A stretch of DNA of 63,949 nucleotides, counting the filler, from Dugesia japonica (taxonomy: Eukaryota), in assembly GCA_001938525.1 (NCBI GenBank). It is 5 parts of 5 records of this genome, joined end to end, with 100 filler letters (N's around TTAATTAATTAA, not from the genome) between each part and the next. Parts side by side here need not be neighbours in the genome. Positions count along the whole stretch, not along the records: positions 11,148 to 24,172 come from MQRL01614224.1; 4 more parts are not named here. The stretch is one strand, 5' to 3'. Within the stretch, counting starts at the first letter, position 1; each line of letters begins with the position of its first letter. Shown piece by piece: positions 3,135 through 60,119 of this stretch. The notes below the pieces were generated by a model that was given only the letters and a program-made list of their open reading frames with translations, made no database searches and was not told where the DNA came from. The translations under genes and the position numbers were made by a program.

Positions 3135-3835
3135 ATGCAACAAATTATTAGTTTAACACAAGATAATGTCATGTTCATCACTGTGGATTACGGAAAATCT
3201 ACAGAATTTTAGGGAATCCAAATGGAATTCAATCAAGAGACCAATAATATATTCATTTGTTTTACAATTTTTTTTTAAAACTTTTTTTTTGATATGTAAG
3301 TTACTAAAATCTAACTAATTTAAATCAAAATTTAACAAAACATATTGGCACAGAGGTGCAGATGAAGAGCATAGGTTGACGCAATCAAAATTTTGCAACA
3401 TTAAAATGACAATTATAAAGGTATTTGATTCTAATTGGAGAAAGAGATTGAAGCCAAGTGATGTTATCTTAGTAGATGATCTGTATTAGGAGGCAAACAA
3501 AGAAAAAGACTTTAATAATTTATTTACAAAAATAAACAGACATTGTAATGTGACAGTGATATTCATTACTCAAAATTTATTCCATCAAGGTGGAAGTCAT
3601 AGGGTTCTTCTTGGTTCTATTTAAAAACCTTAGAGATAAAACAGTTGTTGATTTTCTGGCAAGACAGGCTTATCCTTATATTAGACAATTTCTTATTGAA
3701 TCATTTCAAGATACAACAATAAATCAGCATGGTTATATTTTTCTCGACTTTACACAACAATGTCCAGACGAACTGAGGGTGAGGACCGATATTTTTAATC
3801 CTGATGGTGTTATTGTGTATAAACAAAGTAAGTAA
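3135..3835 (+). pseudogene. Polinton A32/FtsK-like packaging ATPase
   Basis: Walker B region VILVDDLY*E..F.NLFTK..RHCNVTVIFITQNLF, then FKNLRDK..FLARQ.YP..GYIFLDF.Q..PDELRVRTDIF; stops and frameshifts present. Confidence 0.88.
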
Positions 3836-3850
3836 TTATTATATTTTAAA

Positions 3851-3979
3851 ATGGCGAAATTTAAGAAAATTGTAGTTGATCAGATAAACGGTATTCCTAA
3901 AGGGAAAAATGGTAAAAGAACAAGAAAGCGTATTGTAAAAAATAAAAAAGGTAAAAGAAGAAACAAAGTAAGCAGTTGA
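3851..3979 (+). pseudogene. Small Lys/Arg-rich ORF (putative viral core protein remnant)
   Basis: MAKFKKIVVDQINGIPKGKNGKRTRKRIVKNKKGKRRNKVSS*, located between the ATPase and the PW-like ORF. Confidence 0.4.
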
Positions 3980-4085
3980 ACATTTTTAAGAAACCATTAA
4001 AACTGCATGGTAAGACAATGACAAACGTAAAAAGAAAATTGAAATCATTATAAACAAATACAGGTAAGTTATAGTAAAATGTAAA

Positions 4086-4412
4086 ATGAAAATTCAACGA
4101 AGTATTCCAATTTTTACATCCTTAATTAAATCGCCAAAATCGGCAAGAATACAAATTTTGAAATCATTTCCCACCTTTGTTATGGATGATTTTATCGAAA
4201 TTATTATAAATATTGTTTGCGAAAATTCAAATGTGAGTAACGCTAGAAAGGAGGTATTGAAAAAACATAAAAGAACGCTATTAACACTTGTAAATACAAA
4301 ACATAAGAAATTGATGAGACGAGTAATACGTGATAATCAAAGAGGTGCCAGCACTAGGATTAACTCATTTCAAATAAACAATGGCTGGTTTTTAACTGAA
4401 GTATTAATATAA
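4086..4412 (+). CDS. Polinton conserved small protein (PW/core-protein-like)
   Basis: R..IL....DDFIEIIINIV..N......LKKHK.TL.TL...K...R.VI..NQRG resembles the Maverick ORF that ends in QxGG; C-terminus probably decayed. Confidence 0.65.
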   Translation: MKIQRSIPIFTSLIKSPKSARIQILKSFPTFVMDDFIEIIINIVCENSNVSNARKEVLKKHKRTLLTLVNTKHKKLMRRVIRDNQRGASTRINSFQINNGWFLTEVLI

Positions 4413-4489
4413 ACTCATTTAAAATAACCAATGGGTGATTTACAATATATTACTTAATTTTGATTTCAAATTTTCATCTAATTGTTGTA

Positions 4490-5520
4490 ATGAGCAAGCT
4501 AAAGACGATATGGATGGATGCGAAATAATATCGCAGGTTTTGGTAGCGAAGAAAAATTGATGAAAGCAGCACAAAAAACAAAATCAAAAACCAAAAAGTG
4601 GTTATCGGGTCAACTGGTGTACTGTTTGAACAAACCAATTCCAACAAGAGCATATAAAACGTTTGGTATTGATGATTTATGGCAAATGGATTTGATAAAG
4701 ATGATCCCATATTCATAAATAAATAAAGGATAGAAGTATGTTTTAATATGTATTGATGTATGCAGTAGATTTGCTAGAGCTATTCCGGTAAAATCGATAG
4801 CTTTTAATGATATGGAAGTTGCAATTTAGTCAATATTCAAAGATGGACATGCCGATAATTTGCAACTGGATTTGGGTTAAGAATTTTACAACTTTAAAGT
4901 CAAATCATTTTATCACATTTAAACTTAAACAATTATATTGTATTATCACAGTATAAGGCGGCACATGTAGAGACATTTAATCGCACATTAAGATATGCTT
5001 TAAAAAATACTTTGTGCATACTAATAATAAAATCTGGATAAATGTGTTGTTAAAATTTAATCATAGTTATTATCATTCAAGTCATAAAGTTTTAATTGGA
5101 GCAAGATCGGTTGATGTAAGTTCAAAAATGAACTAAAACTATGGTTATCGCGTAATTAAATTAAAGCAATTAAGAAACCTAAATATAAAGTCGATGAACA
5201 TGTTAGAATCTCAAAAATAAGCGCATCTCCATTCATCAAAAACGTTGATAGTAATTGGAGCGATGAAGTGTTTCAAAAATAAAAATCAATTAACAAATTC
5301 AGGCAATTATGTAATTAAAGATTATGAGAATCATATCATACAAGAAAAATATTATGAGCAAGAATTACAAGTCATTCCACATCTTACTATATATAGATTC
5401 GCAAAAATAATCAAATTGAAAGAAACAAAAATGAATAAACAATATTTTGTAAAATGGCATGGATATCAAAACCCTACTAGGATAATCGTATCACAGTTAG
5501 TTAATAATGACATTGAATAA
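4490..5520 (+). pseudogene. Polinton retroviral-like integrase with C-terminal chromodomain
   Basis: GF.S..KL..WLS.Q.VY.L.KP; IDDLWQMDL; YVLICIDVCSRFARAIPVK; LQLDLG*EFYN; KAAHVETFNRTLR; YYEQELQ; YFVKWHGY; many stops and frameshifts. Confidence 0.92.
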
Positions 5521-5800
5521 TTTCTATACACTTTTACCTATTAATAGCTGTCATCTTATTCATCCGAATAATAATGCTAGTAAATTCATTGAGCTTTAAA
5601 ATCTAATTTATATGGATGGTAGTTGGGAAGTAGCATTGTTGGATTTTACCTTTGTATATCAAACATTTCCATTAAAAAGCAAGTTTAAAATTCAATACAT
5701 GTCTACAAGAAATATATCAAATGAAATAACTGTTACAAAAGATCACAAACAACAAGCCTTAAGTGTAAGTAAAAATAATAATGTTGAAATAGCGATTAGT
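5507..5800 (+). pseudogene. Polinton minor capsid (penton, PX-like) N-terminal fragment
   Basis: NFYTLLPINSCHLIHPNNNASKF..LYMDGSWEVALLDFTF matches the FY.TLPSNS...P.N..S.F...L.G.WEV.L pattern. Confidence 0.75.
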
Positions 5801-7333
5801 GGATATTTAACTAGAAAATGTGAATATCTATATGCTGCTATAATTGGAAATTTTTCAAAATTTTATTGGTTGGTGACTAAAATTTTGCAACAAAATGATT
5901 TTACTGTATTAATTTGGTCACAATTTAAAAAATAATATTTTAAACAAGTAAAAATTAACGAAAAATTTTTGTAAGTTTTTTTATTTATTTTTGATTTATT
6001 TTTTATTCTTATTTTAATTTTAGATAAAATGAATAACGAAAGGAAAATTAATTTAACTTTACGAAAACGATTATATGAAGATCGAAGGTTATTTATAATT
6101 TAAAAGATAACTATTTTAAATTATATTTTTAGGTTATAAACATCGCAAAGGAAAAATATGGAGCAGCTGCTACCGAAAATATGAAGAAAAAAGTAAATTT
6201 ATTATTATTAATATTTGATTGTTATTATTATTTTTATTATTTTAGATTTTTCAACTTTTTAAAAATAAGAAAACTGATCCTGATGATCCTTGCCCATCGA
6301 GAAATGTTGGAAATGCGAGCCGGATAGTACATGCGACGGATAATAGCATTATGATTGTGTTGAATCTGAACTCTATGAAAAGGTTTATGAAAAGTATGTT
6401 TTAATTCATTATATATATTTTTTTATTTTAATATTTTAAATATTTCGAATTATAAGTAAAAATTTTAATTATATGATGAAAGCAGTAAATTTATTTTAAT
6501 TATTAATTCAAATTCATTTGTTTTCTCAAAATCGTTTTTAATAATACCTACTTTATAACCATAAACATTATCTCAACTATGCTTCTACTAAATCATTTCA
6601 TTGAACTGTAAAAACTATTATAAGATTGTTATAAATTCGAATCATAAAGATCATGACACAAATTTGAGAAATGACAAAATTTATTTTAATTACTACTAGA
6701 TCACAATTTTACTATAGTTTTGAATCATAATATTCAGCCAAAATTACAAGTCACTCTATTATTAATAATAATATTTACTAGTTAGATTATAATTATAGTA
6801 ATATTCTATCATATAATAATCTATTGTTCTCTGTATTAATAAATGATTTGTTAAATATTAATCATAATCATAATAGAATATTAAAAATAAATTTAAAAAG
6901 TTTAATTTTATTATTAAAATAACAAATCAAATATATCTCTTAAACAGAAACTTTTAATTAAATTATAATTCTAAAACTTATAGTTTTGATAAAGAAAATT
7001 CTCATAAATTAAAAGTAGAGATTATAAATGTAAATCATTAATCTTAAGCAGTCTTATTGTTTTAATAAGAAAAAAAGGAAAATCCATTTTCAATTTATAT
7101 ATACTTTTATATTTTGATTATTGTTGTATTTATAAATTTATCGACAAGCATAAATTGATTTTAAAATCATAAAATCTTATATCAATTAAATGACTACATA
7201 ATTTGTTGATAAAAATAGTTAATAATAAGCATTTATTAGAATAGCTAGTAAAATTATTTTCAAATACTTAATGAATAAATTTTTATAGATAGCTGCAAGT
7301 TGTATTCAAGGCATTGCTCCAATACAAATCATA

Positions 7334-10300
7334 ATGACGATTGCCATACTATTATGGAACAATATTATTGGGCAATCGTATTATGAGAAAAGGTATTACA
7401 TTTGCACAAAATGTAAAACATTAAGTTTAGAAGACTACATAAGTTTTTATAATAAACATTCGTCACATTTAAGTCAATTTAAAGGATCTAAGAAAAATTT
7501 ATTTAAAAGTATTAAAGANNNNNNNNNNNNNNNNNNNNNNNNNNNNNNATTTAAGCAGGATATATACATCGAATTATCAGATGATGAAGAAATTGTAGAT
7601 GAAGAATGGGAAAAATTCAATCGGATGAATGAAGATTTTTCTGCCGCAGTTGAAGACAATGTCGATCGTGCGTTACTGGAAAAAGATGGCGGTGATTTTC
7701 AGATTGTGGAGAAAACCATTGTGAACGAAGAATGAGAACGATTCAACCAGGTTAATGGAGAAGGTTTCACGAATTTTAAAATTGTTAACGAATTTTATAG
7801 GGAATCGAGTAATGATGAGTTAGTAGATTTGGATGCTATTAAAATCATAGATCAGATGAATAATGAAGCTGTTTTGGTTAGTGGTAGTTTAAATAATGAT
7901 TTATCAGATGTAGAAATAGAAACGGATTTATAAAAATGCCACCAAACACTAAGGATAGACGTAACAAGATGGGGTACAAATGAAATAGTTTTACCTAAAG
8001 TTTTATTAGATAAACTATTTACAATTATTAACGATTTAAAAAAAGTAAAAATAAAATTTGGTATAATGGTGGAATTTATAAAGAAAGATGAGGCAAAAAC
8101 TTGCAGATTGTCGAATCGAGCTGTACCACTCACTAATGACTTTTTTGAAGAAGGAATAAAGAAGCTTAATGAACAAGTATCAATTAGAAGTGAGCTTGGT
8201 TCAAGTTGGATTCTGAAAAACGTTTTGGAAATAAATTTCAAAATAACAAAAGTGACGGACATAAGTAGATTATCTGGTTGTAGTTACATCAAAACCCCTA
8301 TCAGTATACAAAATAAATTTGATATAGTGAACGTCGATAATAAAGATAACAAGTGATTTTTATATAGTGCACATGCTTTTATAAAAAAGAACCAGGTAAA
8401 TGATCATCACATGTATAGAGCATCTCAATATCAGAGATTTATGTCTGACTTAAAGTATGATGAAAAGGACATGCCGATTAAGTGAAAAGATATTCCGAAA
8501 TTTGAAAACTTAAATGCAGGACTATCGATCAACGTTCTATCTTGGAATAATACACCAATTGAAGATGATGATAAAGTTGTAATGAAGCACCCATATCATA
8601 CATAAATCAAAGGATTTTGGCGGTCAACAAATTTATTTGCTACTATTGGAAAATGGTGCCAGTTACCATTATACAGCGGTTTTAAATCTAAATCGAATAA
8701 TGACTAGGGATAAAAAAATTAATGGGGAACAAATAAGATCAATATGGTACCCAAATTGTCTAAACTGATTCAGATTACAAGAAACCTTCGAAAAACATGT
8801 GACCATCTGCGATAAAATTCAAACTGGGACGACACAATATACAATGCCAAAAGACACGAAATTAGAATTCAAAGATTATCAAAAAACAATTAATCCCCCA
8901 TTTGCCATATACGCTGATTTTGAATCAGTGTTGCCGAGCAAAGACAAGTATTTTCAGAAACATTTACCTGTTTCGGCTGGTCTGTTGTTGTTTAATAATT
9001 TTACCAACAAAACTGAAGACAGACAGTTTTTCAGGGATGAGTGTGTATTTGAATTCCTAAAAACAGTGGAAGATATAAGTGAAAATATAGTATTTACATA
9101 CTATAATGAAAATGGAAAAAAGAAAATGATGATTACAAGTTCAGAACAAGTATCATTCAACGCTGCTACAATTTGCTATGGAGAAAACCAGTCAGAGATC
9201 ATGACCATTTTAGTGGTGAGTACAAAGAAGAAGCATGCAACACATGTAATCTGAATATACAAATAAATATACAATTTCCTGTTGTATTTCATAATTTAAG
9301 GTGATATGATTTACATCATTTAATAAAATATGGAATTAATCAACTTCCACAATAGAAAATTTCATACCGACAACAACCGAAACATTTTTATGTTTGATGG
9401 TGCGTTAGGGTAATACAACTATCAGGTTTATTGATAGTTATCAGTTTATCAATTTTTCTCTTGATGCTGCTGTGAATTCTTTAAAAAAGACACCTTTGAC
9501 GAAGAAAGAATTTAATGATGATAGAATACAAATGTCAAAGATGATTTTTCAGTATTATTGCGCAATCAGTTTGCAAGTTCTGGTTGATACAACGAGTATG
9601 CCACCCCGATGAGAAGATATAAGTGAAGAGGATTATAATAAAGCGGTTGAAATGCGGACTATAACAAGTTGCAAGACATTACTGGATTATATGATGCTGT
9701 ATTTGAAACTTAATGTCAAAATCAATAGCACAAAATTAATTGGAACCATTAAATTTCTTTGGCATCCCGGGTATGAGTTGGGAATCAGCACTGATTTCGC
9801 TAAATTAACCAATAGAACTACTTTTAGATAATGACATGTATACGTTCTTTGAAGGAGGAATAAGTGGCGGGCTAACGTTTGTCACTAAGCATCCTGTCAC
9901 CTCTGATCATAAAACGGATTTATTGTATATAGATATTAACAATCTATATGGTTGGACTTTAAGTGAGCAATTGCCCTATGGATAATTAGAGTGGGTATAT
10001 GATGGATTGGATACAATTTTGAAATAATGTGAGACAAGAGACCATGTCTCGTTACCATATGGATACACAATAGAGGTGGACATGGAAATTCCAGCCGATA
10101 TTCAAGATGATTTGAACGATCTCCATGTTGCAGCAGAACATCAAAGCCCTCCAGGATTAAGAGTAAAGAAATAATTACTAACTCATTACCCGAAAAAGAT
10201 ATTTATAATTCATCGGAAGCTGCTGCAGTTATAGATTCAGTTGGGTGTAAAAGTAACAAGTGTACACAGAGGAGTTAGGTTTAAGCAAAGGAATATTTTT

Positions 10301-10450
10301 CAGAAATATCTTGACATAAACACAAAATTGTGATCAGAATGCACAGCAGAGCTGGAGAAAGTTTTTTACAAATTGTAAAACAATAGTTTGTATGGAAAGA
10401 CAGTTGAAAATTTGAAGAAAAGTTTGAATTTACGATTGTGTTTTTAGGCA
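7334..10450 (+). pseudogene. Protein-primed family-B DNA polymerase (lineage A), truncated after motif B
   Basis: GSSW..SGCSYIKTP..IVNVDNKDNK; Exo I IYADFES; RDHDHFSGEY..ACNTCN (endonuclease VII-like insert); PVVFHNL; FIDSYQF; GISGG; motif A YIDINNLYG; motif B YKL*NNSLYGKTVEN; numerous stops. Confidence 0.92.
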
Positions 10451-10511
10451 AAAAATTTAGTATTATTAAAATTATAAATACAACATTTATTTTATGTAAT
10501 ATAATTTATGT

Positions 10512-10536
10512 AGTAGGTAGATAGTGGCGCACTGGA
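10512..10536 (+). repeat. Putative Polinton terminus (AGTAGGTAGATAGTGGCGCACTGGA)
   Basis: 21/25 identical to the reverse complement of 11661-11685; related copies at 23819, 40695 and 49171; Polinton ends typically begin with AG/AGT. Confidence 0.6.
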
Positions 10537-10564
10537 TCACCCCTCGGCTACTTAGACAAAGAAC

Positions 10565-10754
10565 ATGAGTCATCGTGATGTGTCATCGGTTGATAGCACA
10601 AAGACAATGACTCATCGCGATGAGCCATCGTAGACTAAGACAAAGAGTATGACTCATAAATATGATTCATAACGATGAGTCATCGTTTCTGGATCAGTAT
10701 GACTCATCAGTTTTCTAGACCGGGTAAGGAAAAACTTTCTAGATCATGACTCAT
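10565..10754. promoter_or_regulatory. Cluster of AP-1/GCN4-type ATGA(C/G)TCAT sites
   Basis: Perfect 9-mers at 10565, 10607, 10649, 10675, 10699, 10746; one-mismatch copies at 10578, 10620, 10662. Function is inferred. Confidence 0.55.
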
Positions 10755-11091
10755 ACTTTTTCTAGATCATAAGTTATATTTTCTAAATCAATCATTTTTT
10801 AATATTTAATTTATAAAAATAAGTTACCATTAGCTTCAAAATATTTTTCCTCGTCATCTACGGTTGTAGCCCATTCTTTCCATCATATTCTAAAATTGGC
10901 TCAAAATTTTCATTTTGATGATTGTCTTCATTTTGTACATTTTCTTGATTTTGATTATTCTCTTCATTTTGTCCATTTTCTTCATTTTGATGAAAGCATT
11001 CAACATCTATTAATTTCTTTATTAGTTTGAAACACATTTGGAAAAACNNNNNNNNNNNNNNNNNNNNNNNNNNNNNNNNNNNNNNNNNNNN

Positions 11092-11103
11092 TTAATTAAT
11101 TAA
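11092..11103. other. Artificial scaffold linker TTAATTAATTAA within a 100-nt N spacer (also 24217, 40330, 55777)
   Basis: Identical 12-mer with stops in all six frames, centred between N runs, four times. Confidence 0.95.
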
Positions 11104-11147
11104 NNNNNNNNNNNNNNNNNNNNNNNNNNNNNNNNNNNNNNNNNNNN

Positions 11148-11235
11148 TAAATATAGAGACTCCCTCCATCTCATGCAAAATATAGAGACTCCTACCATCT
11201 CATGCTAAATATAGAGACTTCTCTCGTCCCTTGTG
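11148..11235. repeat. 29-bp tandem repeat x3 (TAAATATAGAGACTCCCTCCATCTCATGC)
   Basis: Units start at 11148, 11177 and 11206; the array runs into the gap. Confidence 0.85.
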
Positions 11236-11310
11236 TAATAAATTAATTAAATTAAATTAAATTAAATTTAATTATATTAAAAAAAATTCTCCCGATTGAA
11301 ATGAAAAAAA

Positions 11311-11425
11311 TTTCCAACCAAAAAATTACTTTTAATTTTCCCGCCAAAAATATTTTTTTGAATTTCCCACCAAAAAGATTTTTTTGAATTTCCCGCCAAA
11401 AAAAAATTAAATTTACCGCTAAAAA
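11311..11425. promoter_or_regulatory. 26-bp-period array of E2F (TTTCCCGCC) + CHR (TTTGAA) composite sites
   Basis: E2F-like cores at 11311, 11337, 11363, 11389 and 11412; 11383-11397 reads GGCGG-GAAA-TTCAAA on the minus strand. Function is inferred. Confidence 0.55.
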
Positions 11426-11490
11426 ATTTTTGAAAAAAAAATTTTAAAAAAAAAAGTAAAAAAAGAAAAAAAAGATAAAGAATAAAAAAA

Positions 11491-11590
11491 TTGATCCGAT
11501 CAAAAAAAAAAGATCTGATCAAAAAAAATCTGATCCGATCAAAAAATATCTGATCCGATCAAAAATCAATCAGATCAAAAATCAATAATT
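11491..11590. repeat. TGATCCGATCAAAAA tandem repeat (~19-20 bp unit)
   Basis: About five visible units. Confidence 0.8.
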
Positions 11591-11660
11591 ATCGATTAAA
11601 AAATGCAGCTCAGCGTAATGTGTTTTCGAGCCCCCCCCTCGATAACTGCTTAAAAAGTGT

Positions 11661-11685
11661 TGCAGTGCGCTACTATCCCCCTACT
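11661..11685 (-). repeat. Putative Polinton terminus, reverse orientation (AGTAGGGGGATAGTAGCGCACTGCA)
   Basis: Inverted match to 10512-10536. Confidence 0.6.
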
Positions 11686-12299
11686 TTGGTAGAAAGGAAA
11701 AATTAAACTCTGAATAAAATTAAAAACAAGATTAAATTATTTCTGCAATTCACTAATAACAAAATTAATTTTTAATACTGAATGTTCTTTTTCTAAATCT
11801 AAATATGGAAGTTGGAAAAACAAAAGTACATGAATCACAGTGTTCCAGTTCCGTTCTCTATACTGGAAAGTAAAGAATAATAATTCAAATAATTTCATTA
11901 GCAAAACATGTTAAAGAGTCCATAGACTATATTACATAATTGAAAATAAAAATGAAAGAATTTTTTAATGAATATTTACAAAATTAAGTTCCTAGTTTAA
12001 GTTCATTTAAACAGAAGAAGTATGACTACGTTACATCGAATTGCTAGATTTTTGTCAAAGGATTTGAGTAAGCAATCACATAATACCGAGGCAGTGTTTA
12101 CTCATGATCAGTTTTACCGGAAGTACCTAGGCTTTGCTTTGTGGAGAAATATTTTAAGGTAATTTAAGTTAAACATCTATTAATGACTACAAAAAACTTA
12201 CAATATCTATATTATCATTGCACACGTTTAAACAGTTAATCTATGCTAATGGCATAACTACGACTTCTGCAAGTTATTTCGTCTAGTTTTTGCGTCGAT

Positions 12300-15260
12300 A
12301 TGTTTCATTTCATAAAGTTTGCATTGAAATTCTCAAGAAAGTGCATCTGGGTTTGCATGTAATTGTCCTTTTCGATACTGAATTTCAAAATTATACATAC
12401 TTAGTACATTAATCCAGGAGCAGTACTGTGATGTATTTTGTCTTTTTCAATTCAACATCCATGTTAAACTCTTATGGTTTGTGTAAATAGTAGATTTCTT
12501 CACCAATAAATAATGCTTGTATTTCTTCTCTATATATTAAACCGTCATGAATTCTATCCTGGTAATACAAAACATTTTTTTGCTTTCGAAGATTTCTTAG
12601 ATTCATAACTTATTACTTTTTCTTTGTTATCTTGAATTTAATTTAAAACTTTTCCCACAAAACTATTATCTGTATTCAATACAAAAATATTATTCTTATT
12701 TGAGAACGATAAAACTAGAGCGCTGGTCAGAGCATGTTTCAAACTTTCGAAAGATTCCTTATGAAAATTTTCCCATATTAAATCTACTTTTTTTCCGTTT
12801 CTCGTGATGTATGCATCTTTTAACAAATTTTCTAGAGGTATAACAATTTTGGCATATCTCCAAATAAATTTTCTGTGATAGTTGGAAAACCCTAGAAAAC
12901 TTGATAATTCTTCATTTGTTTTAAGAATACTCCAATTTTTAACCGCACCAATTTTTTCTATATCAGTTCTCATTTCTTTGCTAGATATTATGTGATCCAA
13001 ATCGTTTACTGAAGTTTTCAAAGAAACGCATTTCTTGGGAGATAAATTAACTTTCGACTGCCGTATCTTTCTCTAAAAATATCATCGAGATATATTAAGC
13101 ATTTATCGAAATTTTCTTCTTTGAAAACTAAATTTATTAATCTTTGAAAAGTTGTTGGTGCTCCACACAGTCCAAAAGACATGCAATTAAATTCATACAG
13201 ATCTTTTCATGTAGCAAAAGTTATTTTTCCTCTGTCTTTGTCACTTATTTCTACATTGTAATACCAACTAGGTAAATCAAGTGCACTAAAGAATCTTGAT
13301 CCTGAAAGTGTATAAAACAACTGCTGATTATCTGAAATAGGATGTATAGGTCTATTAGTAACTGAGTTTAATTTTCTAAAATCTATAAATAGCCTAATGT
13401 TTCAAGATTTCTTTTTGAACAACCACAATAGACGAAGACCACGGACTTGAACTCTTGCGTATTATTCCGTTTTATTCACGTTCTTTGATCATCTCGTCGA
13501 TTTTATTCTCTAAATGAAGAGGAGCTCTTTGTAATGGCTGAGTCATAGGTATAGGATCAATGGCATCTATTTAGTGTTTGAAAAATGGACAATAACCGAT
13601 ATCATAATTACATTGATTAAGTATATCTTTAAATTATGTTATTATCTTTATAACAGTATTCTTCGCATTTTTATCGATATCAGCTGAATGTCTGTTCATA
13701 AATGTGTCCATTATACATTGAATATGCCCCATCACGGCATGTTGATATATTCTATTAATATTCCCAATATTATCTTCTGCATTGTCTACAATCTCAATAC
13801 AACCTAATTTCGTATTTCTAAACATTTTAATATCTTTATTTTGGGCTTCGAGGTTTTTGTTATTAATATTTCCTTGTGGACACTTTATCTTGATTCTTTC
13901 TCTATAATCTCTTCTTATTTCCGCATTCGTTATCATAGCATTTTTTAGGGTTAGATATTCCGAATCCGGCAATAATTTGATGACGCCTCGCGCATGGCGA
14001 CATCTAACCCGAGTCCATGCGGAACTATGTGGTATCAGTCTATGAGTTTCCTTCTTTCTGCATGGCTTTAGTTTTTCTTTCTTGTTATTAGTTCAATCAT
14101 TTTCATTTAATCCAGACTAACTGATTTATCAAGAGGTTTTACGCAATTTCAGATCTATTTACAATTCACAATCACATCTAGGATGTATCCTTAATTGTTA
14201 ACACTTCGTATTTATTTTGTATTCTTACTATATCACGATTTTGAGAGCCTTGACTTAGACTATGAACGATTGCTATTGTATTAAACCTCGAATATATTTG
14301 TCCAACTTAATAATATTGTCTGGATAATTGATATTTCTTTTTGTTTTCTTCTGTCTTTCAGTTTTTCTTTCTTTGGAAACAATTTTGAAAAATTTATTAT
14401 TAGCTACAGATTCCTTTTCATAATCACATCTGGCCTCAACGCATTCAATATTCGAATTGTCATTAGTTTTTTCTAGTCTTCGAAAAGCTTTTTTCTGAAT
14501 ATTGGATCTTTTTGCTCCTTTGCAAAATTGAGATATATGTGCGGATTTGTTACAGTTCCTGCATAGCAATGGTTTGTTACAATTTCGAGCAATATGACCA
14601 TTTCCATTGCAATTATAACATTTTATTTCTTGTTTGATCTTTTGAACCACATCATTTGGAGAATCTGCTTCATGGTTTCTTTCCAAATACTTTATACGAT
14701 TTTCAAACTCAATTATTCTCTTTTCTAAGATTTCCATTTCTTGCCACTTTTCCGTGTTGATGTGATTGTTGATAATTCGCAATTTATCATTATAACGAGT
14801 TTAACTTCCTTTTTCATGAAATTAAAAGATTCTACAAGAGTGTTTAATTTCATAATTTCCGTGACTCTGGCAGCAAAACGTTTATTTACTCCTGTCAAAA
14901 ATATTGATGAGAGTTTTCTTCCTATTAAATTCATGATTTTCCGGCATTTCCCGAATTCAAGAAATAGCAGTTAGATACTGTCTAAGAGTCATATCTTTCT
15001 ATTTCAACGATAAAATATTAATTATTGGAGTTACCTTGGTTGACTTGATCTGATAAAATTCAATTAACTTTGTCTTAAGCCAATTGTAATTTGAATTGAT
15101 CCAAGTTCAAAAATGCTTCTTCTTCTAAGTTTTTCAATAGCTTCTCTTAAAGTTGTGTTGAATCTAACTTTTTGTTCTTCCACAAATTTTTCGAATTTGG
15201 TAGTATGAATAGAAATATTTTCTACGATTGTAACATTTTTGGAAAACGTTTTTTTTTTCA
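12300..15260 (-). mobile_element. Degenerate Ty3/Gypsy LTR retrotransposon (gag-RT-RNase H)
   Basis: gag knuckles CYNCNGNGHIARNC and CRNCNKSAHISQFC; RT ID.RKLN, F.ALDL.SWYYNV, MSFGLCGAPTTFQRL, LIYLDDI; SFLGFSNYHRKFI..YAKIVIPL; FVLNTD; many stops. LTRs not identified. Confidence 0.9.
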
Positions 15261-18070: not shown

Positions 18071-19350
18071 TATTATGTCTCAAAAGTCTTCGTATTTTAA
18101 TTTTATTATTTCAAAGTAATTTTTGTAATTGATTTAAATATCTTAATCTATATAATTATATATCATTTTGAAGACATTTAAATCCTTTATCAGACGGAAA
18201 ATTAATATATAATAAATAATTGTAAATTATTGTTTTAATTTATTTAGAAGAAATATGGATAAATTTGAAATTAGAGTACTTTTAAAACACTATTGGAAAC
18301 AAAATGTCAATGCAACTCAAATGGGCAAGAAAATATGTGAGGTGGAAGTGGCAGACTTTGTTTCCATTCGTGTTCCTCAAAATTGGTTCAAAAAATTTAA
18401 TCTGGGTCAGGATCACCTTCAAGACCAAGCACGACCCGGCAGACCTATAACAACAGATTTTGAATGTCTACGCAACGCATTGGAGGCTAATCCATCGACC
18501 AGCACTTCGAGAATATCTGACGAACTCGGTATTCCAAAGACATCAGTTTTTAGACATATTCGTTTAATCGGCAAGGTGAACAGATGCTCTCGAAAAATTC
18601 CACACGAATTGACTGAAAATCAAATAAAACAACGTTTGGAGGCGTGTCAAAAACTGCTTTCAAATCCTTCTGATGCCCGTTTTATACGCTGGATTGTGAC
18701 TTTGGATGAAAAATGGGTCTACTTAGATAACCCTAACAGACATAATCAATGGCTTGACTCCAGGCAATTGCCAAATCAGGTGCCAAAGAGAGATGGGTTC
18801 TCTAAAAAAGTATTCTTGTGCGTTTGGAGTAATTTCGACGGTGTTATCTATTTCGAAATTCTTGAAAACAATGGGGCCATTTACACAGACCTCTACTGCT
18901 CTCAACTAGACAGAATGTACACAAAATTTAAGGAAAAATATTCAGCATTGGTAAACCGAAAGAGAATACTTCTACAGCACGATAATGTCAAACCGCACAC
19001 TGATTAGGAAAACAATGGAAAAAATAAAGAAGCTGGATGAACTTTTACAACATCCGGCTTACAGCCCAGATCTCGCACCACCATACTATCATCTTTTCCG
19101 GTCTATGGCGCATTTTCTGCGAGGTTGATGTTTCAATAATTTGGGTGAGGTGCAAAATGGGTGCCAAGATTTTTCAGCTCCAAAGACAAGGGCTGGTATG
19201 AACGCGGGATACAGCAACTTGTCGATAGATGTATTTAAACCATTAATTAAAATGGTCTTTATTTTGAGACATAATATTTATTTGTTCTTCTTTTATTTAG
19301 TATATATTTATTGAATAAAAATACGAAAAGACTTATTGGACACCCTAATA
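18071..19350 (+). mobile_element. Mariner (DD34D) transposon, defective
   Basis: Transposase 18255-~19273 with R.GRP, IPHELT, IVTLDEKWVY, LLQHDNVKPH, then stop/frameshift and HPAYSPDLAPPYYHLF (third D replaced). Degenerate TIRs tattatgtctcaaaagtcttcgta / tacgaaaagacttattggacaccctaata, with TA ends. Confidence 0.93.
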
Positions 19351-19631: not shown

Positions 19632-22600
19632 CTAAGAGATTACTAATACTATTAATATAATTTCAAAAGAACTAACCTGTGCAAACACTCCGTGTCGTTT
19701 ATGTTCAATATCTATATAAGTTGAAAGAGGCTGAATTCCTAAATAAGTTTCAACATCTCCTTTTCCTTTCATAAATACACTTCCTCGGTATTCAAATAGA
19801 AAGTTGTTTCTTAAATAGTTTTCAACAATATCAGAAACTTGTATTCTTCCAGCAGGTGCAGTACTATACATTCTACTTGCAACATTAACCGTATCACCCC
19901 AAATATCATACAACGGTTTCGATGTACCGATAATTCCTGCAGTTACCGGACCAAAATTATATCCAATTTTCAAGTAGAAATTCTTGGTTCCAACAATATT
20001 TTCTTCATTGTAAAATGCTAATTGATTTAATAGATCAAATGAAAACAACATTAACTTATGCAAATGATCTTCTCGGTAGGCTTTTGATGAAACATTCAAT
20101 CCAGAAGCCATCATATAGCAATCATTAACTGTTTTTATTTTTTCTAATCCTTTATACAATGGATTTCTTAATAAATTATCAAATCCACAAATAATATTAT
20201 GCAAGACTTTCAGAGCATTTAAACCCCTCTTAAAATCTTCTCTATAATAACCAGAAAAGAAATTACTTACTGACGCAAATACCACTCCAGCATTTGGAAT
20301 AGTGTTTGCATAACTGAATTTCGTGTTGTTTTTGTCATCTGAACTTCCTGTAATTTGAAAGAAAACGTATTTCGGTATAATATTGTAAAGAAATTTTTCT
20401 GCTGTTTTTTTTTCTTTTTTAGCTTCATCATTAAGAATTTCAGCTTCTCTTGATGCATAAAAATAAATTCGAATGTTTTTTTCATTTTCTCTTGTTAAAT
20501 AATAAATTAATAAACAAATTTGTAGAAGTTGAAATGTATAAAAATACTGCAGTTTTTGAGTTCTTATTTGGACATTTATTACTAAATAATCAACGCAATT
20601 TGTGAATTTATAATCAATTGAATCTTGATTTGATTTCAATAAAATGTAGATAGATGCTCCTGTACACACAGCAGTAGATAATTGTTTGACAACGCTATAT
20701 GAAACGGTGAATATACAATTAGTGATTAGTGAAAAAAATGTTAAAGTAAAATATGAAACCGTGTATTCGTAATCAATATATAATCTTTCTTTATCATACA
20801 ATGTATGAACTAGAAGAGTCGGAAGTGCAGAAATATAAATTCCAATAAATAATCGTATTAAAGGATGACTGAATAGAATAAATAGTTTTTTAAATATCTC
20901 CGTTGGAATTTCGCTTTTATATACCAATGAGACCCAAGCAGATATCAAAGTAATAATAATTCCACTAATATAAATGAGAGCTGTACTTTTTGTTATGCCA
21001 GTACTTCCAATTAATAAAACATGTGCCGAAACCAAGAGAAACGTACTGTAAACTTGGCAGGCTATTGCATCGAACAGTGAAGCAAGCTTAACTGACCCAA
21101 AGTTAATTACTTTTAATTGGTCAACAATATGAAATTGATAATGTGATTCGATTTCTTCGTCGATAAATGTTAACGTAAATGTATTTATCGGTGGATTTTG
21201 AAAAAATTGAACGGTTTTTTCTGGATCACTTTGTAAATGCCTTATCAATTCCAAATCATTTTTCATTTTTTCATCTCTGATTTTAAAAGCAAGTGCAGAT
21301 TTATCAATACCAATTTGTGCTGATTGTTCTTTACTATCCTTTTCTACGTTTTTTCCAATGGTTTTCGATTCATCATTAAGATTTCTATTAAAATATTCAT
21401 CATATTCGGTTGCAGCTGACTCTACAAAATATGTCGATATAGGAACCATAGTTGGAGCGAATCCTTCAAGACCAAATTGTCGTTCTTTTTTAACCATTAA
21501 TTTTTCTCCCTCAACAAAAGTGTATGCATGGCAAACCAATTTGAATGTTTTCTCTGAAATATGAACTTTGCCGGGTTTTCCACTGGATTCTAAAGCATTT
21601 GCAATCGAAACATCATTTGAATAAACGTCAAATCTAAATCGAGAATTTCCAATAATTGCAGCAATAACTNNNNNNNNNNNNNNNNNNNNNNNNNNNNNNA
21701 CTTCTTCATTATGAGCTTTATTAAAAGCCAATATCATTTTACACATTCCTAATCCCATTTCTACACAACACAACGCATGATCAGATCTCGGTACTGGACA
21801 ACCTGAAACACAATAATAGCAATCGCCTAATGTAGCGATTTTTTCACAATTCATAATTTCTCCAAAATCATCAAAACGATTATATAAATCATTCAATAAA
21901 AACACTAACTGTTTAGCTGTTTTATTTGAACTCATTGCTGTAAATCCAACGATATCAGCAAATAAAATACTAACGTTTTTAAATTGTTTACAATAACCGA
22001 GATTGAACAAGTTTTTAGATCGAGTATTTTCGAGAAATTCTCCTCGAACCGCTGCTGGCATTATAGCTTCAATCCAATAGATTTGCACTTTAATAGCGGA
22101 ATCCATTTTCATTTTTGCTTGAGCATTCTGAGCTAATTTTAAAAATGCTGATTTACGTCGGATTGAATTAAATATTCTTAAATAAATGCCAGTTAAATAA
22201 ACCGTAAAGAACAAAATAAATTGCCCAAATAATAGTTGGTATTTATGTTTTATATCATGATTTGTATGTCGAACCATCGTTAATACATTACCAAATTCAG
22301 ATATATTATGTGATGTTTCGTCGTGAGTTTTCAATCGGTAATTAACTGATGATATGAATATTAAAATATAAACAATACTTAGCAACATAGTTATTAGAAA
22401 TCTTAAATGAAATAGTGTGTACATCATCAATATAACAGCAACCATCAATGAAAATCTAGCTTCCATCATTTCATCTCTATCTGACGCTAGTAAAACAGAA
22501 TAGCTCATACAAATAACAACCATTATTGATGCTAATGAAATCATAGTCGATGTTTTTTCTATATGAACTGTAAAACCGAAGAAACATATAAAAGTACAGA

Positions 22601-22814
22601 ATGCAATTAATGCCACAATTGGTTTGAATATCATATTTCTGTCAGCCATATGTGAAGAAATAATTTCACAACAAAAATAAAATATTAAAACTTTGGTTCC
22701 GTTTCTAATTGATTTAATATTGTGGACCGTCATAAGCATGTGGAAATATTCACTGAATGCAGTAGAGTTAAGACTAAGAACTTTTAAAATTCTGTGAATT
22801 TTATCTCTCAGCAT
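19632..22814 (-). CDS. Transmembrane adenylate cyclase, ADCY9-like
   Basis: Two hydrophobic TM clusters and two class III cyclase domains. C1: VSILFADIVGFT, EKIATLGDCYYCVSGCP. C2: EKIKT, YDIWGDTVNVASRMYST, KGKG. YYREDFKRG..KVL..I..FD resembles AC9. Possible terminal 45-nt intron 19676..19632 would give ...FAQCTKQL*. Confidence 0.93.
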   Translation of the reverse strand: MLRDKIHRILKVLSLNSTAFSEYFHMLMTVHNIKSIRNGTKVLIFYFCCEIISSHMADRNMIFKPIVALIAFCTFICFFGFTVHIEKTSTMISLASIMVVICMSYSVLLASDRDEMMEARFSLMVAVILMMYTLFHLRFLITMLLSIVYILIFISSVNYRLKTHDETSHNISEFGNVLTMVRHTNHDIKHKYQLLFGQFILFFTVYLTGIYLRIFNSIRRKSAFLKLAQNAQAKMKMDSAIKVQIYWIEAIMPAAVRGEFLENTRSKNLFNLGYCKQFKNVSILFADIVGFTAMSSNKTAKQLVFLLNDLYNRFDDFGEIMNCEKIATLGDCYYCVSGCPVPRSDHALCCVEMGLGMCKMILAFNKAHNEEXXXXXXXXXXXVIAAIIGNSRFRFDVYSNDVSIANALESSGKPGKVHISEKTFKLVCHAYTFVEGEKLMVKKERQFGLEGFAPTMVPISTYFVESAATEYDEYFNRNLNDESKTIGKNVEKDSKEQSAQIGIDKSALAFKIRDEKMKNDLELIRHLQSDPEKTVQFFQNPPINTFTLTFIDEEIESHYQFHIVDQLKVINFGSVKLASLFDAIACQVYSTFLLVSAHVLLIGSTGITKSTALIYISGIIITLISAWVSLVYKSEIPTEIFKKLFILFSHPLIRLFIGIYISALPTLLVHTLYDKERLYIDYEYTVSYFTLTFFSLITNCIFTVSYSVVKQLSTAVCTGASIYILLKSNQDSIDYKFTNCVDYLVINVQIRTQKLQYFYTFQLLQICLLIYYLTRENEKNIRIYFYASREAEILNDEAKKEKKTAEKFLYNIIPKYVFFQITGSSDDKNNTKFSYANTIPNAGVVFASVSNFFSGYYREDFKRGLNALKVLHNIICGFDNLLRNPLYKGLEKIKTVNDCYMMASGLNVSSKAYREDHLHKLMLFSFDLLNQLAFYNEENIVGTKNFYLKIGYNFGPVTAGIIGTSKPLYDIWGDTVNVASRMYSTAPAGRIQVSDIVENYLRNNFLFEYRGSVFMKGKGDVETYLGIQPLSTYIDIEHKRHGVFAQVSSFEIILIVLVIS

Positions 22815-23818: not shown

Positions 23819-23843
23819 AGTAGATATATAGTAGCGCCCTGCA
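23819..23843 (+). repeat. Putative Polinton terminus copy (AGTAGATATATAGTAGCGCCCTGCA)
   Basis: Matches consensus AGTAGnnnnATAGTAGCGCACTG; the contig breaks ~330 nt inside. Confidence 0.55.
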
Positions 23844-40694: not shown

Positions 40695-40719
40695 AGTAGA
40701 TAGATACTAGCACACTGGA
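40695..40719 (+). repeat. Putative Polinton terminus copy (AGTAGATAGATACTAGCACACTGGA)
   Basis: Aligns ungapped to the 10512 and 23819 motifs. Confidence 0.5.
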
Positions 40720-41538
40720 ACTTTTAGGACCTCCTCCTACGTCTATTCTAGAAATTTGGTGTGTTAAAATTTTGTCTTTGTTCTAGTATAAATATTGTGA
40801 TTGATAATCGAGTCGAGTTGTTAAGATTTCGCGGCTGTATTAGTTTTTTAACCGCATCATATTTTTACCATGAAGGAAGCATTTTTAGATAATATTCCTT
40901 TAAGCAATTTTTAATTCTCTATCCGTATATTGTATAAGTTCAAATGGAGACTGAACACCATTTTAAAATCTGTAGTAACTTTTTATATTTACTTTATATT
41001 GCAAATATAATCACACTATGTTTGTCATCAAAGCACTTTTGTAACTTGACTTTTACCCATTTTTAATAAATTAATGTACCTTTAACCTTTTTTTCATAGA
41101 TAAGGTAAATTTTGCTGATACCCGTTCATGAGACAGAACTAACTTACTTTTTAATTGTTTATCATATGGTACCAGTTTTTATTGGAAAGCTTTATTGATG
41201 GAGAGGGTGGCTCACTGCGCTATTTACTTACTCTGAACTAAAACCTATTTTAAGCATAAATGGAGTGTTTTCTGATATTAGTTTTTTGGGAAATAATATA
41301 GGCAGTTTTTAATTCTATCGAATGCTAAGTTTAAAAATGGTGGCTTTATTAAATCTTTAATAACTTTAATAACTCCTCTAGTTGAAAATTTAATTACATC
41401 ATGTTCATCTTTTTAATGCTACCGAATTTGACATTTTTCTACTGAAATGTATCAACCTTTCTAAATCGAGTATATTGGAACAAAAACAAAACTTTTTACT
41501 AATCAAATATTTTAATTTAAAAAAAACTATCAATCATT

Positions 41539-54570: not shown

Positions 54571-55560
54571 TCATTGAAAAAAACACAATTTGTCAACAAA
54601 ATCTTTGGAAAAATTCCGCTTTAATAATTGAGAATTTTCGCAGCAAATAAGAAACTCCTCGAGAGCTTTATCATTATCCGGTTGCAATTTTAAATTTCTA
54701 TAAGAATCTATTAAAGTTTTAAGCGGTTGTAAAAGGTTTATGTTGAAAAATTCATGGAGATTTTTTCGTCGTTTCTTTTCAACGTTTTCTTCTTGAAGTT
54801 GATTTGATTCATTTCGAAAAAATTCCAACTGACTCATTAGAATCTCGTTTTGAACTTTTAATAATTGTAATTTATGATAAGACAATTGAGAATATTTCAA
54901 TAGTAATTCTTGATCTTTAGCTCGAATTTTACTATTATAATTTTCTATCATTTCACCAATTTGTTTATTCTTTTTACTATTATGAAATATTAAATAAGAA
55001 AACTGAGCAACTATTTCCAAAAGATCTTTATGATGAGATTTATAATGAGCAAATGAATTTTTGAATTCATCATTTTGTTGGCTGATAAATTCTTTACTTA
55101 AACCAATTTTCGATTGAACAGAAATGAGTATCATAATTTTATACAAATCAAGCAGTTTTTTCTCTAAATGTATTATGTCAAATACATTTAATGAACTAGC
55201 ACTTGAAATGGTTTGATGGAAATTTTTTGAAGACGGAAAGATATTATTATGTCGATAAAGAATAAATAAATTATTTGGAAATTTATCATTTATACAATTT
55301 GATGTGCATATAAATAATAAATTTCTGAGTTTATTTGCTAGATTTAACAACTCTGATATTTCTGAATGTGAAATAGTACACTGATCACCAAAAAACTTAA
55401 TTTGAAATACATTTTTAAGTTTATTGATAAATTGTAATAGATTATTATAAATATTCTGGAAATTGTCTTGTTGTTGTTGAATATTTTGCTGAATGATGAA
55501 AATTTGCCTTTCTAGCAAAACTATTTGATTTTTTAAACTTTTAATTTTTAACAAACTCAT
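54571..55560 (-). CDS. Hypothetical coiled-coil protein (329 aa)
   Basis: Uninterrupted ~1-kb ORF in very AT-rich DNA with Q/L/E/K heptad-like stretches; no family recognised. Confidence 0.55.
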   Translation of the reverse strand: MSLLKIKSLKNQIVLLERQIFIIQQNIQQQQDNFQNIYNNLLQFINKLKNVFQIKFFGDQCTISHSEISELLNLANKLRNLLFICTSNCINDKFPNNLFILYRHNNIFPSSKNFHQTISSASSLNVFDIIHLEKKLLDLYKIMILISVQSKIGLSKEFISQQNDEFKNSFAHYKSHHKDLLEIVAQFSYLIFHNSKKNKQIGEMIENYNSKIRAKDQELLLKYSQLSYHKLQLLKVQNEILMSQLEFFRNESNQLQEENVEKKRRKNLHEFFNINLLQPLKTLIDSYRNLKLQPDNDKALEEFLICCENSQLLKRNFSKDFVDKLCFFQ

Positions 55561-55832
55561 AAAAGTCTATTCTCATATAGTTTTTATAATTACAAAATTT
55601 TTTTTATAAAAATTGATATTTCAAAATGTGATTATTAGAACTCTAGACAATGATTGATTAAAAGAAAGATTAATTTAAATTCTAATTCACAAATGTAATA
55701 ATAAAAAATGAAGTAATTTAATTATTAAATACNNNNNNNNNNNNNNNNNNNNNNNNNNNNNNNNNNNNNNNNNNNNTTAATTAATTAANNNNNNNNNNNN
55801 NNNNNNNNNNNNNNNNNNNNNNNNNNNNNNNN

Positions 55833-56236
55833 TTTTTAGTAATATCTTTTAAGTTAGGATCTTCAATAATATTTTTTAAATATTTATGTATTGCATTTCC
55901 TTGCCACGGATTTAAATAAATACCACTGCCTGTTTTATTTTTACTGGTTTTAGCTTTTTCTAAAAGTTCAATCTCTTTTTGTTTTTTAATAGCATCTCTA
56001 GAATTTGAAACAGTAGATGCAATTCCAGATGCAATACTAGCAGTTCCAGCTAACGCACCAATAATTGCTGGTATTGCAGCTAAAAATGCAAATCCTCCTT
56101 CATGTGATTTCTTTTTTAATTCATCTTTAACTTTTTTACTAATAAAATAATTTTTACCATCTATCTTTACAGATTTACATTTCTTTGCATTTATTATCTT
56201 TTCTAATTCTTCTTTAGTTACATTTGTGTTGCTCAT
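55833..56236 (-). CDS. Polinton/adintovirus core-type protein with GG-F hydrophobic segment (3' end in gap)
   Basis: KKSHEGGFAFLAAIPAIIGALAGTASIASGIA...GSGIYLNPWQG matches the Maverick GGFL..AG..GG.A..G.GLYL.PY.G family; directly downstream of PolB. Confidence 0.75.
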
Positions 56237-56319
56237 TTTCTTTTATATAAAAATTGAGTATATGTTAAATTTTTATTTATTAAATCTAATACTAAATAAC
56301 ATTGATTACAGAAAGAACA

Positions 56320-59300: not shown

Positions 59301-59998
59301 TACTCCATCCTGATCCTTCTCTATCTTCATCTTCAATATATCTTTGTAATTCATCAAACATTACATTGATGCCATTTTTAATTTCACTTTCTAATATAAA
59401 TCTTTTATTTGATGAATATGATGTAAAATCTTTTTCAACATGTTTATTATTTATTTCTTTTTCATATCTGCATTTAACCATCATACTTATAACAATCTTT
59501 TTTCCATATCTTAAATATTTTGTGACAATTTCTTCTACTTCCTTTTGAAATATATAAATATTATTAACTGTTTCATATATTTCATCTACATTTAATTTCA
59601 TTTCCACTTTACTCTCTTTGAAATATTCAATTTTATAATCTTCATATTCTTTTAATAATTCTCTAATTTCTAATTTAGAATTAATTACTTCTCCACCTGA
59701 TTGATTACGCACCATTTTTTTNATGTCTGTCACAATTATAATGTGCTCTTGCATGATTTTGTCTTGTAAATCTTTTGTTACAAATTTCACAGAATAATGG
59801 AACAATCTCTGGATTACCAAATCTTGTTGCATTTAAATGTTCTTGTAGTCCATTTTCTGAATTGAATTTTTTACGACATTTGTCACATTCAAATTCTTCA
59901 TTTACTCTGTAACAAATTCTAAATCTAACATGGGCTTTCAACCCAGCTAAGCTTTTAAACACTTTATTATAATTATTAAATTTGTTTGTATCACTCAT
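56320..59998 (-). pseudogene. Near-complete protein-primed PolB (lineage B) with N-terminal C2H2 zinc fingers
   Basis: C2H2 fingers (CDKC..F..L..H; CEIC..F..H..H) joined across an ambiguous homopolymer (n at 59722) to QSGG, EGSGW, INIENKDNKCF, LGDFE, KDHNHFNGEFRGWSCNNCN, FHNASGYD, FFDS, GIRGG, YIDENSLY, YKLMLNAFYGKTLEN. Frameshifts at ~56900 and ~56390; motif C absent (IQYS|EDN); QMKDE, KAKSY, KNKGV present. Confidence 0.93.
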
Positions 59999-60119
59999 TT
60001 TCTAAAGGAATAATTTAATCATAGACACAATAAAATGGTGTAGATTTTATTTCCTCTTTTTATTTTATATTTTTTCCTCTTAAACATTATTTCCTCTTTA
60101 AATAATGTAACATTCGAGA

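What the first reader, a model, noticed from the sequence alone, without database searches (positions are those of the whole stretch)
11311..11425. Phased E2F-CHR (DREAM-type) composite array inside a second putative viral terminus
Seen: E2F-like cores recur every 26 nt (11311, 11337, 11363, 11389, then 11412), two of them perfect TTTCCCGCC. Units read GGCGG-GAAA-TTCAAA, GGTGG-GAAA-TTCAAA and GGCGG-GAAA-ATTAAA on the minus strand, ~270-370 nt from the terminus at 11685. Known: an E2F/CDE core followed by a 4-nt spacer and a CHR-like hexamer is the DREAM/MuvB (E2F-DP + LIN54) arrangement, and adenovirus replication genes are E2F-controlled. Inference: the element end is wired to the host cell-cycle/germline switch (silent in quiescent soma, active in cycling cells). 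With the AP-1 array, this suggests subterminal host-sensing cassettes behind a common origin motif, the best candidate for an undescribed system here.
Basis: partly seen in the sequence, partly recalled or inferred. Interest (0 to 1): 0.72.

Follow-up and report, generated by a model that had tools for sequence, protein, structure and literature searches.

The report
DREAM-type sites in flatworm transposon end
A very abundant mobile element of a flatworm, likely a virus-like Polinton, carries just inside its end a short tandem repeat shaped like the DNA site of the cell-cycle repressor DREAM, which would likely let it read the host's cell-division state, although binding is untested and similar site arrays occur in unrelated transposons.

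Summary
The array is real: five E2F-like cores 266-375 nt inside an element end that stops exactly at 11685 (82 different loose flanks in one DNA run). It is a 26-bp minisatellite, so the units are not independent, and only one of five is a perfect E2F + 4 nt + TTYRAA site here. Sister units are very abundant in four runs, mostly fit the motif better, and vary at the CHR's degenerate purine. The sites face inward behind a T-rich tract, as a promoter would. Not shown: that this end belongs to a Polinton (a gap cuts it after 538 nt), binding, or activity in cycling cells; published planarian Polinton RNA rises with differentiation. The composite is not Polinton-specific: tandem copies occur in 12 metagenome loci, one a transposon-like end, and in 0 of 27 Polinton-like viral loci. 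Precedents: E2F arrays in plant MITEs and the E2F site at adenovirus nt 280. The scan noted this array twice before on other pieces of this genome. Verdict: new variant of a known kind; likely a host E2F/MuvB-bound end module, unproven.

The parts
11661..11685 (-). Terminal 25-nt motif of the element, starting AGTAG; element end at 11685
   Evidence: 82 contigs of run X1 end loose behind 11685 with 0.38 agreement, summed depth falls from about 9,200 to under 50, and a low-depth contig aligns only from 11686 on; related motifs at 10512, 23819, 40695
11484..11586 (-). 20-bp tandem repeat with GATC-rich cores and T-tracts
   Evidence: TRF period 20, 4.2 copies; high depth in 4 of 4 runs
11411..11585 (-). 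T-rich tract on the inward-reading strand, upstream of the array (11 T-runs of 5 or more, 1 A-run)
   Evidence: skew reached by 1 of 4677 sliding 175-nt windows (region chosen after looking)
11309..11420 (-). 26-bp minisatellite of E2F core + 4 nt + CHR-like hexamer, five cores, facing into the element
   Evidence: deepest part of the end in 4 of 4 runs
11383..11397 (-). The one perfect composite site in this copy (GGCGG-GAAA-TTCAAA)
   Evidence: TTYRAA with R = A counts as optimal in PMC4974476
11239..11281 (.). 5-bp AT-only microsatellite inward of the array
   Evidence: TRF
11149..11219 (.). 29-bp tandem repeat, continuing into the gap
   Evidence: TRF; loose ends before 11149 continue the repeat
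11048..11147 (.). Scaffold gap (two N runs around a 12-nt pad); the element's interior is not in the window
   Evidence: the same 44+12+44 pad recurs at 24173, 40286, 55733
10512..11047 (+). A different end of the same motif family, with an AP-1-type array, facing the gap; not shown to be the partner of 11685
   Evidence: 29 nt at 83% identity only; flanks give no target-site duplication
3319..10474 (+). Decayed Polinton (fragments of ATPase, integrase with chromodomain, protein-primed polymerase) that the 10512 end abuts
   Evidence: tblastn of the 56848-59832 polymerase hits 8198-10438 at E 8e-12 to 5e-8; Chromo E 0.004, below cut-off; ATPase and integrase labels are from recalled motifs
12638..14970 (-). 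Fragments of a Gypsy-like retrotransposon on the outer side of the end
   Evidence: RT_RNaseH_2 and zf-CCHC hits

Best explanation
The array is a 26-bp minisatellite built into the end of a high-copy mobile element of a flatworm, likely a Polinton, and its unit likely binds host E2F4-Dp together with MuvB/LIN54 as part of a predicted inward-facing promoter of the element. Shown: the end, the repeat, its abundance, the fit to the composite motif, the inward orientation and the upstream T-rich tract. Inferred: one E2F+CHR site arose or was captured, was multiplied by slippage and spread with the element; DREAM would hold the element's first genes off in non-dividing cells and release them in S/G2 of neoblasts and germ cells, the cells that pass insertions on, much as the E2F site at adenovirus nt 280 gates E1A.
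For: Exact 4-nt spacing and CDE-before-CHR order on the inward strand, as in DREAM-bound promoters and the C. elegans hybrid motif. Composite in 2 of 5000 shuffles; CHR at that position in 1.1% of shuffles given the core. Among laid sister copies, differences of 5% or more inside the three 15-nt sites (45 positions) fall at 3 places: the degenerate purine of the CHR (both variants fit TTYRAA) and two places where this copy departs from the motif and most sisters do not; the linker centre and its T-run vary by substitution and indel. The same pattern holds in 4 of 4 runs, one labelled as a second organism. T-biased tract upstream resembles neoblast and constitutive promoters. Host factors E2F4-1, Dp, Rb, lin-9, rbbp4 are reported in S. 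mediterranea and e2f4-1 is neoblast-enriched. Adenovirus uses a conserved E2F site at nt 270-290 for repression and persistence. E2F binds MITE-borne sites in vivo in Brassicaceae.
Against: No binding, chromatin or RNA evidence for this element was obtained. Only 1 of 5 units is perfect here, and a core variant that departs from the E2F consensus holds 19-31% of the depth at 11369. Conservation seen by laying is biased towards copies alike enough to be laid, and young high-copy repeats are alike anyway. Polintons as a class gain RNA and H3K4me3 on differentiation and are piRNA-repressed, the opposite of neoblast-only activity. No TF motif was enriched at neoblast promoters. No gene is seen downstream: the gap starts 160 nt inward. 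LIN54 was not found by name in the supplements searched. 0 of 27 Polinton-like viral loci carry the composite, though only 3 show terminal repeats at their ends. The host is shown to be a flatworm but the species is not, so the S. mediterranea papers may not apply exactly.
Confidence: 0.4

Rival explanations
1. Host E2F/MuvB does bind, but the use is not transcription: bound factor plus A/T tracts keep the element end open or early-replicating and so favour copying or integration in S phase; most copies may be non-autonomous.
For: E2F arrays were amplified by gene-less plant MITEs and are bound in vivo; the same composite sits 128 nt inside a different, CACAGTG-starting element in two metagenome loci, which suggests a benefit that does not depend on Polinton genes; the array is 87-433 times deeper than this terminal sequence.
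Against: Inward polarity and the T-biased upstream tract fit a promoter; depth ratios from contigs are not copy numbers.
Confidence: 0.22
2. A neutral minisatellite: one E2F-like site of chance or host origin was duplicated by slippage among A/T tracts and hitch-hiked with a successful element.
For: The end holds four different tandem repeats in 538 nt; units decay towards both edges; tandem arrays near ends are common in other Polinton-like loci too.
Against: A 15-nt bipartite match with exact spacing is rare (1.5e-5 of unit shuffles for the composite); the common CHR variation stays inside TTYRAA; the same composite recurs in tandem in unrelated eukaryotes.
Confidence: 0.2
3. The repeats are binding sites for an element-encoded protein (integrase, packaging ATPase or zinc-finger protein) and resemble E2F sites by convergence.
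For: Adenovirus packaging repeats overlap the same region of its left end (figure legend); the piggyBat right end, which its transposase binds, contains the same core with its A-tract; the other Polinton in the window encodes a C2H2 protein next to a 14-bp array.
Against: The recalled adenovirus A-repeat pattern (TTTG-N8-CG) does not occur in this end; sister ends with the same terminal motif carry other arrays, which a shared element protein would not predict; the CHR half is unexplained.
Confidence: 0.13
4. The end is not a Polinton's but that of another DNA transposon family whose non-autonomous members carry different TF-site arrays.
For: No Polinton gene is joined to any of the 4 AGTAG ends in the window, and the Polinton at 54571-60474 shows no such end; the 25-nt motif was not found in 27 Polinton-like loci, IMG/VR or GTDB. 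This rival concerns identity and can hold together with any mechanism above.
Against: AGTAG fits the (AGT)2/(AG)3 type of Maverick ends and an IMG/VR Polinton-like locus has inverted repeats with an AGTAGT-starting arm; 3 of 4 ends run into assembly gaps within 540 nt, as long high-copy elements do; one abuts a Polinton remnant.
Confidence: 0.2

Closest known systems
CDE/CHR elements bound by DREAM (LIN54 structure, PMC4974476; C. elegans hybrid Motif 1, PMC3093354; passages read)
   Same: GC-rich E2F core, 4-nt spacer, TTYRAA hexamer, same order
   Different: Here in tandem at 26 nt inside a mobile element end, not a single site at a host gene start; binding untested
E2F sites amplified by MITEs in Brassicaceae (Henaff et al. 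2014, seen only as cited in PMC5950925 and in the retracted PMC6268010)
   Same: Same E2F core in short tandem repeats inside high-copy DNA transposons
   Different: Animal host, a CHR half-site in addition, probably a Polinton-type end; in plants binding was shown
Adenovirus E1A enhancer E2F site at nt 270-290 (PMC4726734, passages)
   Same: E2F site about 280 nt from the end of a protein-primed replicon, upstream of the first genes; E2F/Rb represses and allows persistence
   Different: One or two sites without CHR in a free virus; here an array in an integrated element whose Polinton identity is inferred
Polinton/Maverick terminal inverted repeats (PMC8097293, PMC10748475, passages)
   Same: AG-starting end with short repeats, long non-coding subterminal region, many insertion sites
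   Different: Second end, 6-bp duplication and genes not visible; no E2F/CHR array is described in the passages read or seen in 27 related viral loci

Membership tests
CDE/CHR (DREAM) element | E2F/CDE core followed by 4 nt and TTYRAA | tested here: met
   1 of 5 units perfect, 2 with one mismatch; most sister units fit better; consensus
CDE/CHR (DREAM) element | Lies at a transcription start site | tested here: inconclusive
   Inward polarity and T-rich upstream tract, but no RNA data were obtained and the gap hides what follows
CDE/CHR (DREAM) element | Bound by E2F-DP and LIN54; confers cell-cycle-dependent repression | not testable with these tools
   Needs EMSA, ChIP or reporter
CDE/CHR (DREAM) element | Host encodes E2F, DP, pocket protein and MuvB including LIN54 | tested here: inconclusive
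   E2F4-1, Dp, Rb, lin-9, rbbp4 reported for S. mediterranea; lin-54/tesmin not found by name in supplements searched; no genome held
Polinton/Maverick | End begins with AG and short repeats | tested here: met
   AGTAG at 11685, end fixed by loose ends; types listed are (AGT)2 and (AG)3, so the fit is close, not exact
Polinton/Maverick | Long terminal inverted repeats at both ends | tested here: inconclusive
   No partner in the window; 10512 shares only 29 nt; gap at 11048-11147
Polinton/Maverick | 5-8 bp target-site duplication | tested here: inconclusive
   No match between the flank of 11685 and the flanks of the 3 plus-strand ends; the true partner is probably outside the contig
Polinton/Maverick | pPolB, integrase, ATPase, protease and capsid genes between the ends | not testable with these tools
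   Interior lost in the gap; Polinton genes in the window are not joined to this end
Mobile element (any) | Same end at many unrelated insertion sites | tested here: met
   82 loose ends behind 11685 in X1; a contig in X1 and X3 carries the flank with other DNA in place of the element

The most novel reading that the evidence does not exclude
Planarian Polinton-like elements keep one terminal origin motif and swap host-sensing cassettes behind it (E2F/CHR here, AP-1 in the neighbouring end), and tandem DREAM-site arrays are a recurrent, convergent device by which unrelated DNA transposons of many eukaryotes tie themselves to the host cell cycle.
Probability: 0.22. Interest if true: 0.78.

Novelty: new variant of a known kind. 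Interest (0 to 1): 0.46.

Why it matters
If bound, it would show how an endogenous DNA virus-like element chooses the cells in which it becomes active in an animal whose only dividing somatic cells are stem cells, and thousands of such sites could also sequester DREAM or rewire nearby genes. It makes a direct test possible: E2F4-1, Rb or lin-9 RNAi with element-resolved RNA-seq and CUT&Tag. The metagenome hits suggest that the pattern extends beyond flatworms and beyond Polintons.

Tried and rejected
No whole genome is held, so ends could not be collected or followed into genes. Terminal motif: 0 hits in IMG/VR and GTDB. Tandem composite: 0 hits in IMG/VR. Triple E2F core in IMG/VR: 28 hits, most of them coding Gly-Gly-Lys repeats, 0 of 28 with a CHR composite nearby. 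The window's polymerase alone found no related locus in IMG/VR or GTDB; an alignment of 30 homologues found 27 loci. Rfam: 0 matches in 10400-12000. That 10512 and 11685 bracket one element: rejected as unproven, no duplication and unlike subterminal DNA; the read test across the gap was not obtained. Adenovirus-type packaging repeat: absent. An LxCxE motif in the ORF at 54571-55566 could not be tested for conservation, no homologues (0.05 expected by chance). Depth ratios (array/flank about 84,000-150,000 in X1-X3, 7,000 in X9; end/flank 750-965 and 17) are sums over overlapping contigs and were not taken as copy numbers. Kapitonov and Jurka 2006 and Henaff 2014 were not obtained. Four supplementary files of PMC4494696 were not searched and could name lin-54. 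Searches that showed no paper on E2F/CHR arrays in Polinton ends: (listings only; subscription journals and Repbase reports are not covered).

Full report
Setting. The window is an AT-rich animal scaffold with many gaps. Its adenylate cyclase has named flatworm proteins as best named hits, so the host is a flatworm; 'planarian' comes from earlier scan notes and the species was not determined. No whole genome is held. The window holds two Polinton remnants with protein-primed polymerase (3319-10474 on +, and 54571-60474 on -), Gypsy and mariner fragments, and four ends that share a 25-nt motif starting AGTAG, at 10512, 11685, 23819 and 40695.

The observation. They lie 266-375 nt from 11685. 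TRF calls 11309-11402 a 26-bp tandem repeat of 3.6 copies, so spacing and recurrence come from duplication and the proper test is on one unit. Only 11383-11397 has both halves perfect; two units have one mismatch, one has two, one lacks the CHR. The 15-nt composite arose in 2 of 5000 shuffles of the 538-nt end and in 0 of 100 shuffles of the window; with the core held fixed, TTYRAA lands at the 4-nt-spacer position in 1.1% of shuffles. TTCAAA and TTTAAA both fit the optimal LIN54 consensus, and DREAM promoters carry the CDE four bases upstream of the CHR (PMC4974476, passages); a related hybrid motif recruits DRM in C. elegans (PMC3093354, passages).

The end is real and abundant. Laying contigs of 4 of the 24 listed runs on 11148-11800 showed 82 contigs of X1 ending loose behind 11685 with unlike flanks, a fall of summed depth from about 9,200 to under 50, and a low-depth contig in X1 and X3 that aligns only from 11686 on and has about 890 other letters before it, i.e. 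an empty site or a paralogous flank. The array is the deepest part in 4 of 4 runs, 87-433 times the terminal bin; these sums are not copy numbers, but even divided by 31 they imply thousands of units in X1-X3. Differences of 5% or more within the three 15-nt sites fall at 3 of 45 positions: the degenerate purine of the first CHR, where both variants fit TTYRAA, and two positions where this copy departs from the motif and most sisters do not; one of these core variants still holds 19-31% of the depth. The linker centre varies in 43-62% and its T-run by indels. Laying favours alike copies, so this is suggestive, not a selection test. X9, labelled as a second organism, shows the same pattern.

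Anatomy, read inward from 11685: terminal motif; a GC-richer spacer; 20-bp GATC repeats and a T-rich tract (11 T-runs against 1 A-run; skew reached by 1 of 4677 windows, region chosen after looking); the E2F/CHR array with the E2F half first; an AT microsatellite; 29-bp repeats; then a gap at 11147. This order is that of an inward-facing promoter, and T-bias before the start marks neoblast and constitutive promoters in S. mediterranea (PMC10558129, section 10). The end at 10512 across the gap carries an AP-1-type array (about six sites by eye), shares only 29 nt with 11685 and gives no target-site duplication; the two are not shown to be one element.

Is it a Polinton? Likely, not shown. AGTAG resembles the (AGT)2 and (AG)3 ends of vertebrate Mavericks (PMC8097293, passages), three of four ends run into gaps within 540 nt, and one abuts a Polinton remnant. 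But no gene is joined to any of them, and the motif was absent from IMG/VR, GTDB and 27 Polinton-like loci.

How general is the array? 0 of 27 Polinton-like viral loci carry the strict composite; only 3 of them show terminal repeats at their ends, so this negative is weak. A scan of JGI metagenomes for two composites in tandem gave 12 loci, short contigs, several with eukaryotic genes (SPRY-LisH, 7tm_1, ephrin-receptor-like) and no Polinton gene among 14 ORFs from 11 of the 12 loci. In them 36 of 41 E2F cores are followed at once by TTYRAA, 26 of these required by the pattern and 10 of the other 15 not. Two loci (L030, L034) share 971 nt at 99.7% that begin at CACAGTG with different flanks, a transposon-like end (Transib label recalled), with the composite 128 nt inside and facing inward. 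No spacer control could be run on that collection. The piggyBat right end printed in a methods section holds the same core (bioRxiv 10.64898/2026.07.15.738711, passages). So the device is neither unique to this element nor evidently Polinton-wide.

Host side. S. mediterranea has one Rb, one Dp and E2F4-1 (PMC5176148, passage); e2f4-1 and rbbp4 are neoblast-enriched and lin-9 exists (PMC4494696, passages and 10 of 14 supplementary files); lin-54 was not found by name. These are class-level results and do not exclude one family behaving otherwise. RNA over this end was not obtained.

Mechanism. Most likely (0.40) the array binds host E2F4-Dp and MuvB and gates an inward promoter, repressed in non-dividing cells and released in cycling ones. 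Rivals: bound but serving chromatin opening or replication timing of the end (0.22); neutral hitch-hiking minisatellite (0.20); site for an element-encoded protein (0.13). Separately, about 0.2 that the end is not a Polinton's.

Comparison and novelty. It works like, if anything, the adenovirus E1A enhancer, whose conserved E2F site at nt 270-290 represses and permits persistence (PMC4726734, passages), and it is built like the E2F repeats of Brassicaceae MITEs, which E2F binds in vivo (as cited in PMC5950925, passages; PMC6268010 is retracted and served only as a pointer; the original was not held). PMC6431247 and PMC10748475 (passages) gave general Polinton features. Seven literature searches (listings) showed no report of E2F/CHR arrays in Polinton ends. 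The full DREAM composite in tandem in an animal Polinton-like end is therefore a new variant of a known kind. The scan noted it twice before on other pieces of this genome. Interest 0.46; the bold reading, swappable host-sensing cassettes and a convergent DREAM-array device, has probability about 0.22 and would deserve 0.78.

Noticed in passing
L030:841-971 (minus) and L034:145-306: Two insertions of one element starting CACAGTG (Transib/RSS-like, recalled) with inward-facing tandem E2F+TTYRAA sites 128 nt inside the end, in an unidentified eukaryote.
   Followed up: partly
L035:1-484, L031:6-128, L039:1-168, L036:1463-1667: Further tandem E2F+CHR arrays (19-35 nt periods) in metagenome eukaryote contigs, often at contig ends.
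   Followed up: partly
L001:5663-5719 and L020:10001-10200: Non-coding tandem E2F-core repeats without CHR in contigs that look like large eukaryotic DNA viruses (kinase, NUDIX, Bro-N genes); L001's lies between divergent genes.
   Followed up: partly
window 54571-55566 (-), residues 304-308: An LxCxE motif (Rb-binding type, recalled) after acidic residues in a 329-aa Polinton ORF with no homologues; 0.05 expected by chance.
   Followed up: partly
window 60155-60474: 23 copies of a 14-bp repeat upstream of the C2H2 zinc-finger ORF and polymerase of the second Polinton; no AGTAG end found beyond it.
   Followed up: no
window 23819-24172 and 40695-41500: Two more ends with the 25-nt motif, each with different subterminal DNA and no E2F array.
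   Followed up: partly
window 11149-11219 and 11577-11645: The 29-bp repeat holds octamer-like ATGC(A/T)AAT words and the spacer holds TATCGAT-like words (Oct and DRE labels recalled; untested).
   Followed up: no
window 11686-11800: In runs X1-X3 the only contig over 11746 differs from the window and lacks the element, so this insertion may be polymorphic between strains or haplotypes.
   Followed up: partly
window 19632-22814 (-): A 1060-aa adenylate cyclase 9-like gene in a single open frame.
   Followed up: partly
window 18255-19007 (+): Mariner/Mos1-type transposase fragment.
   Followed up: no
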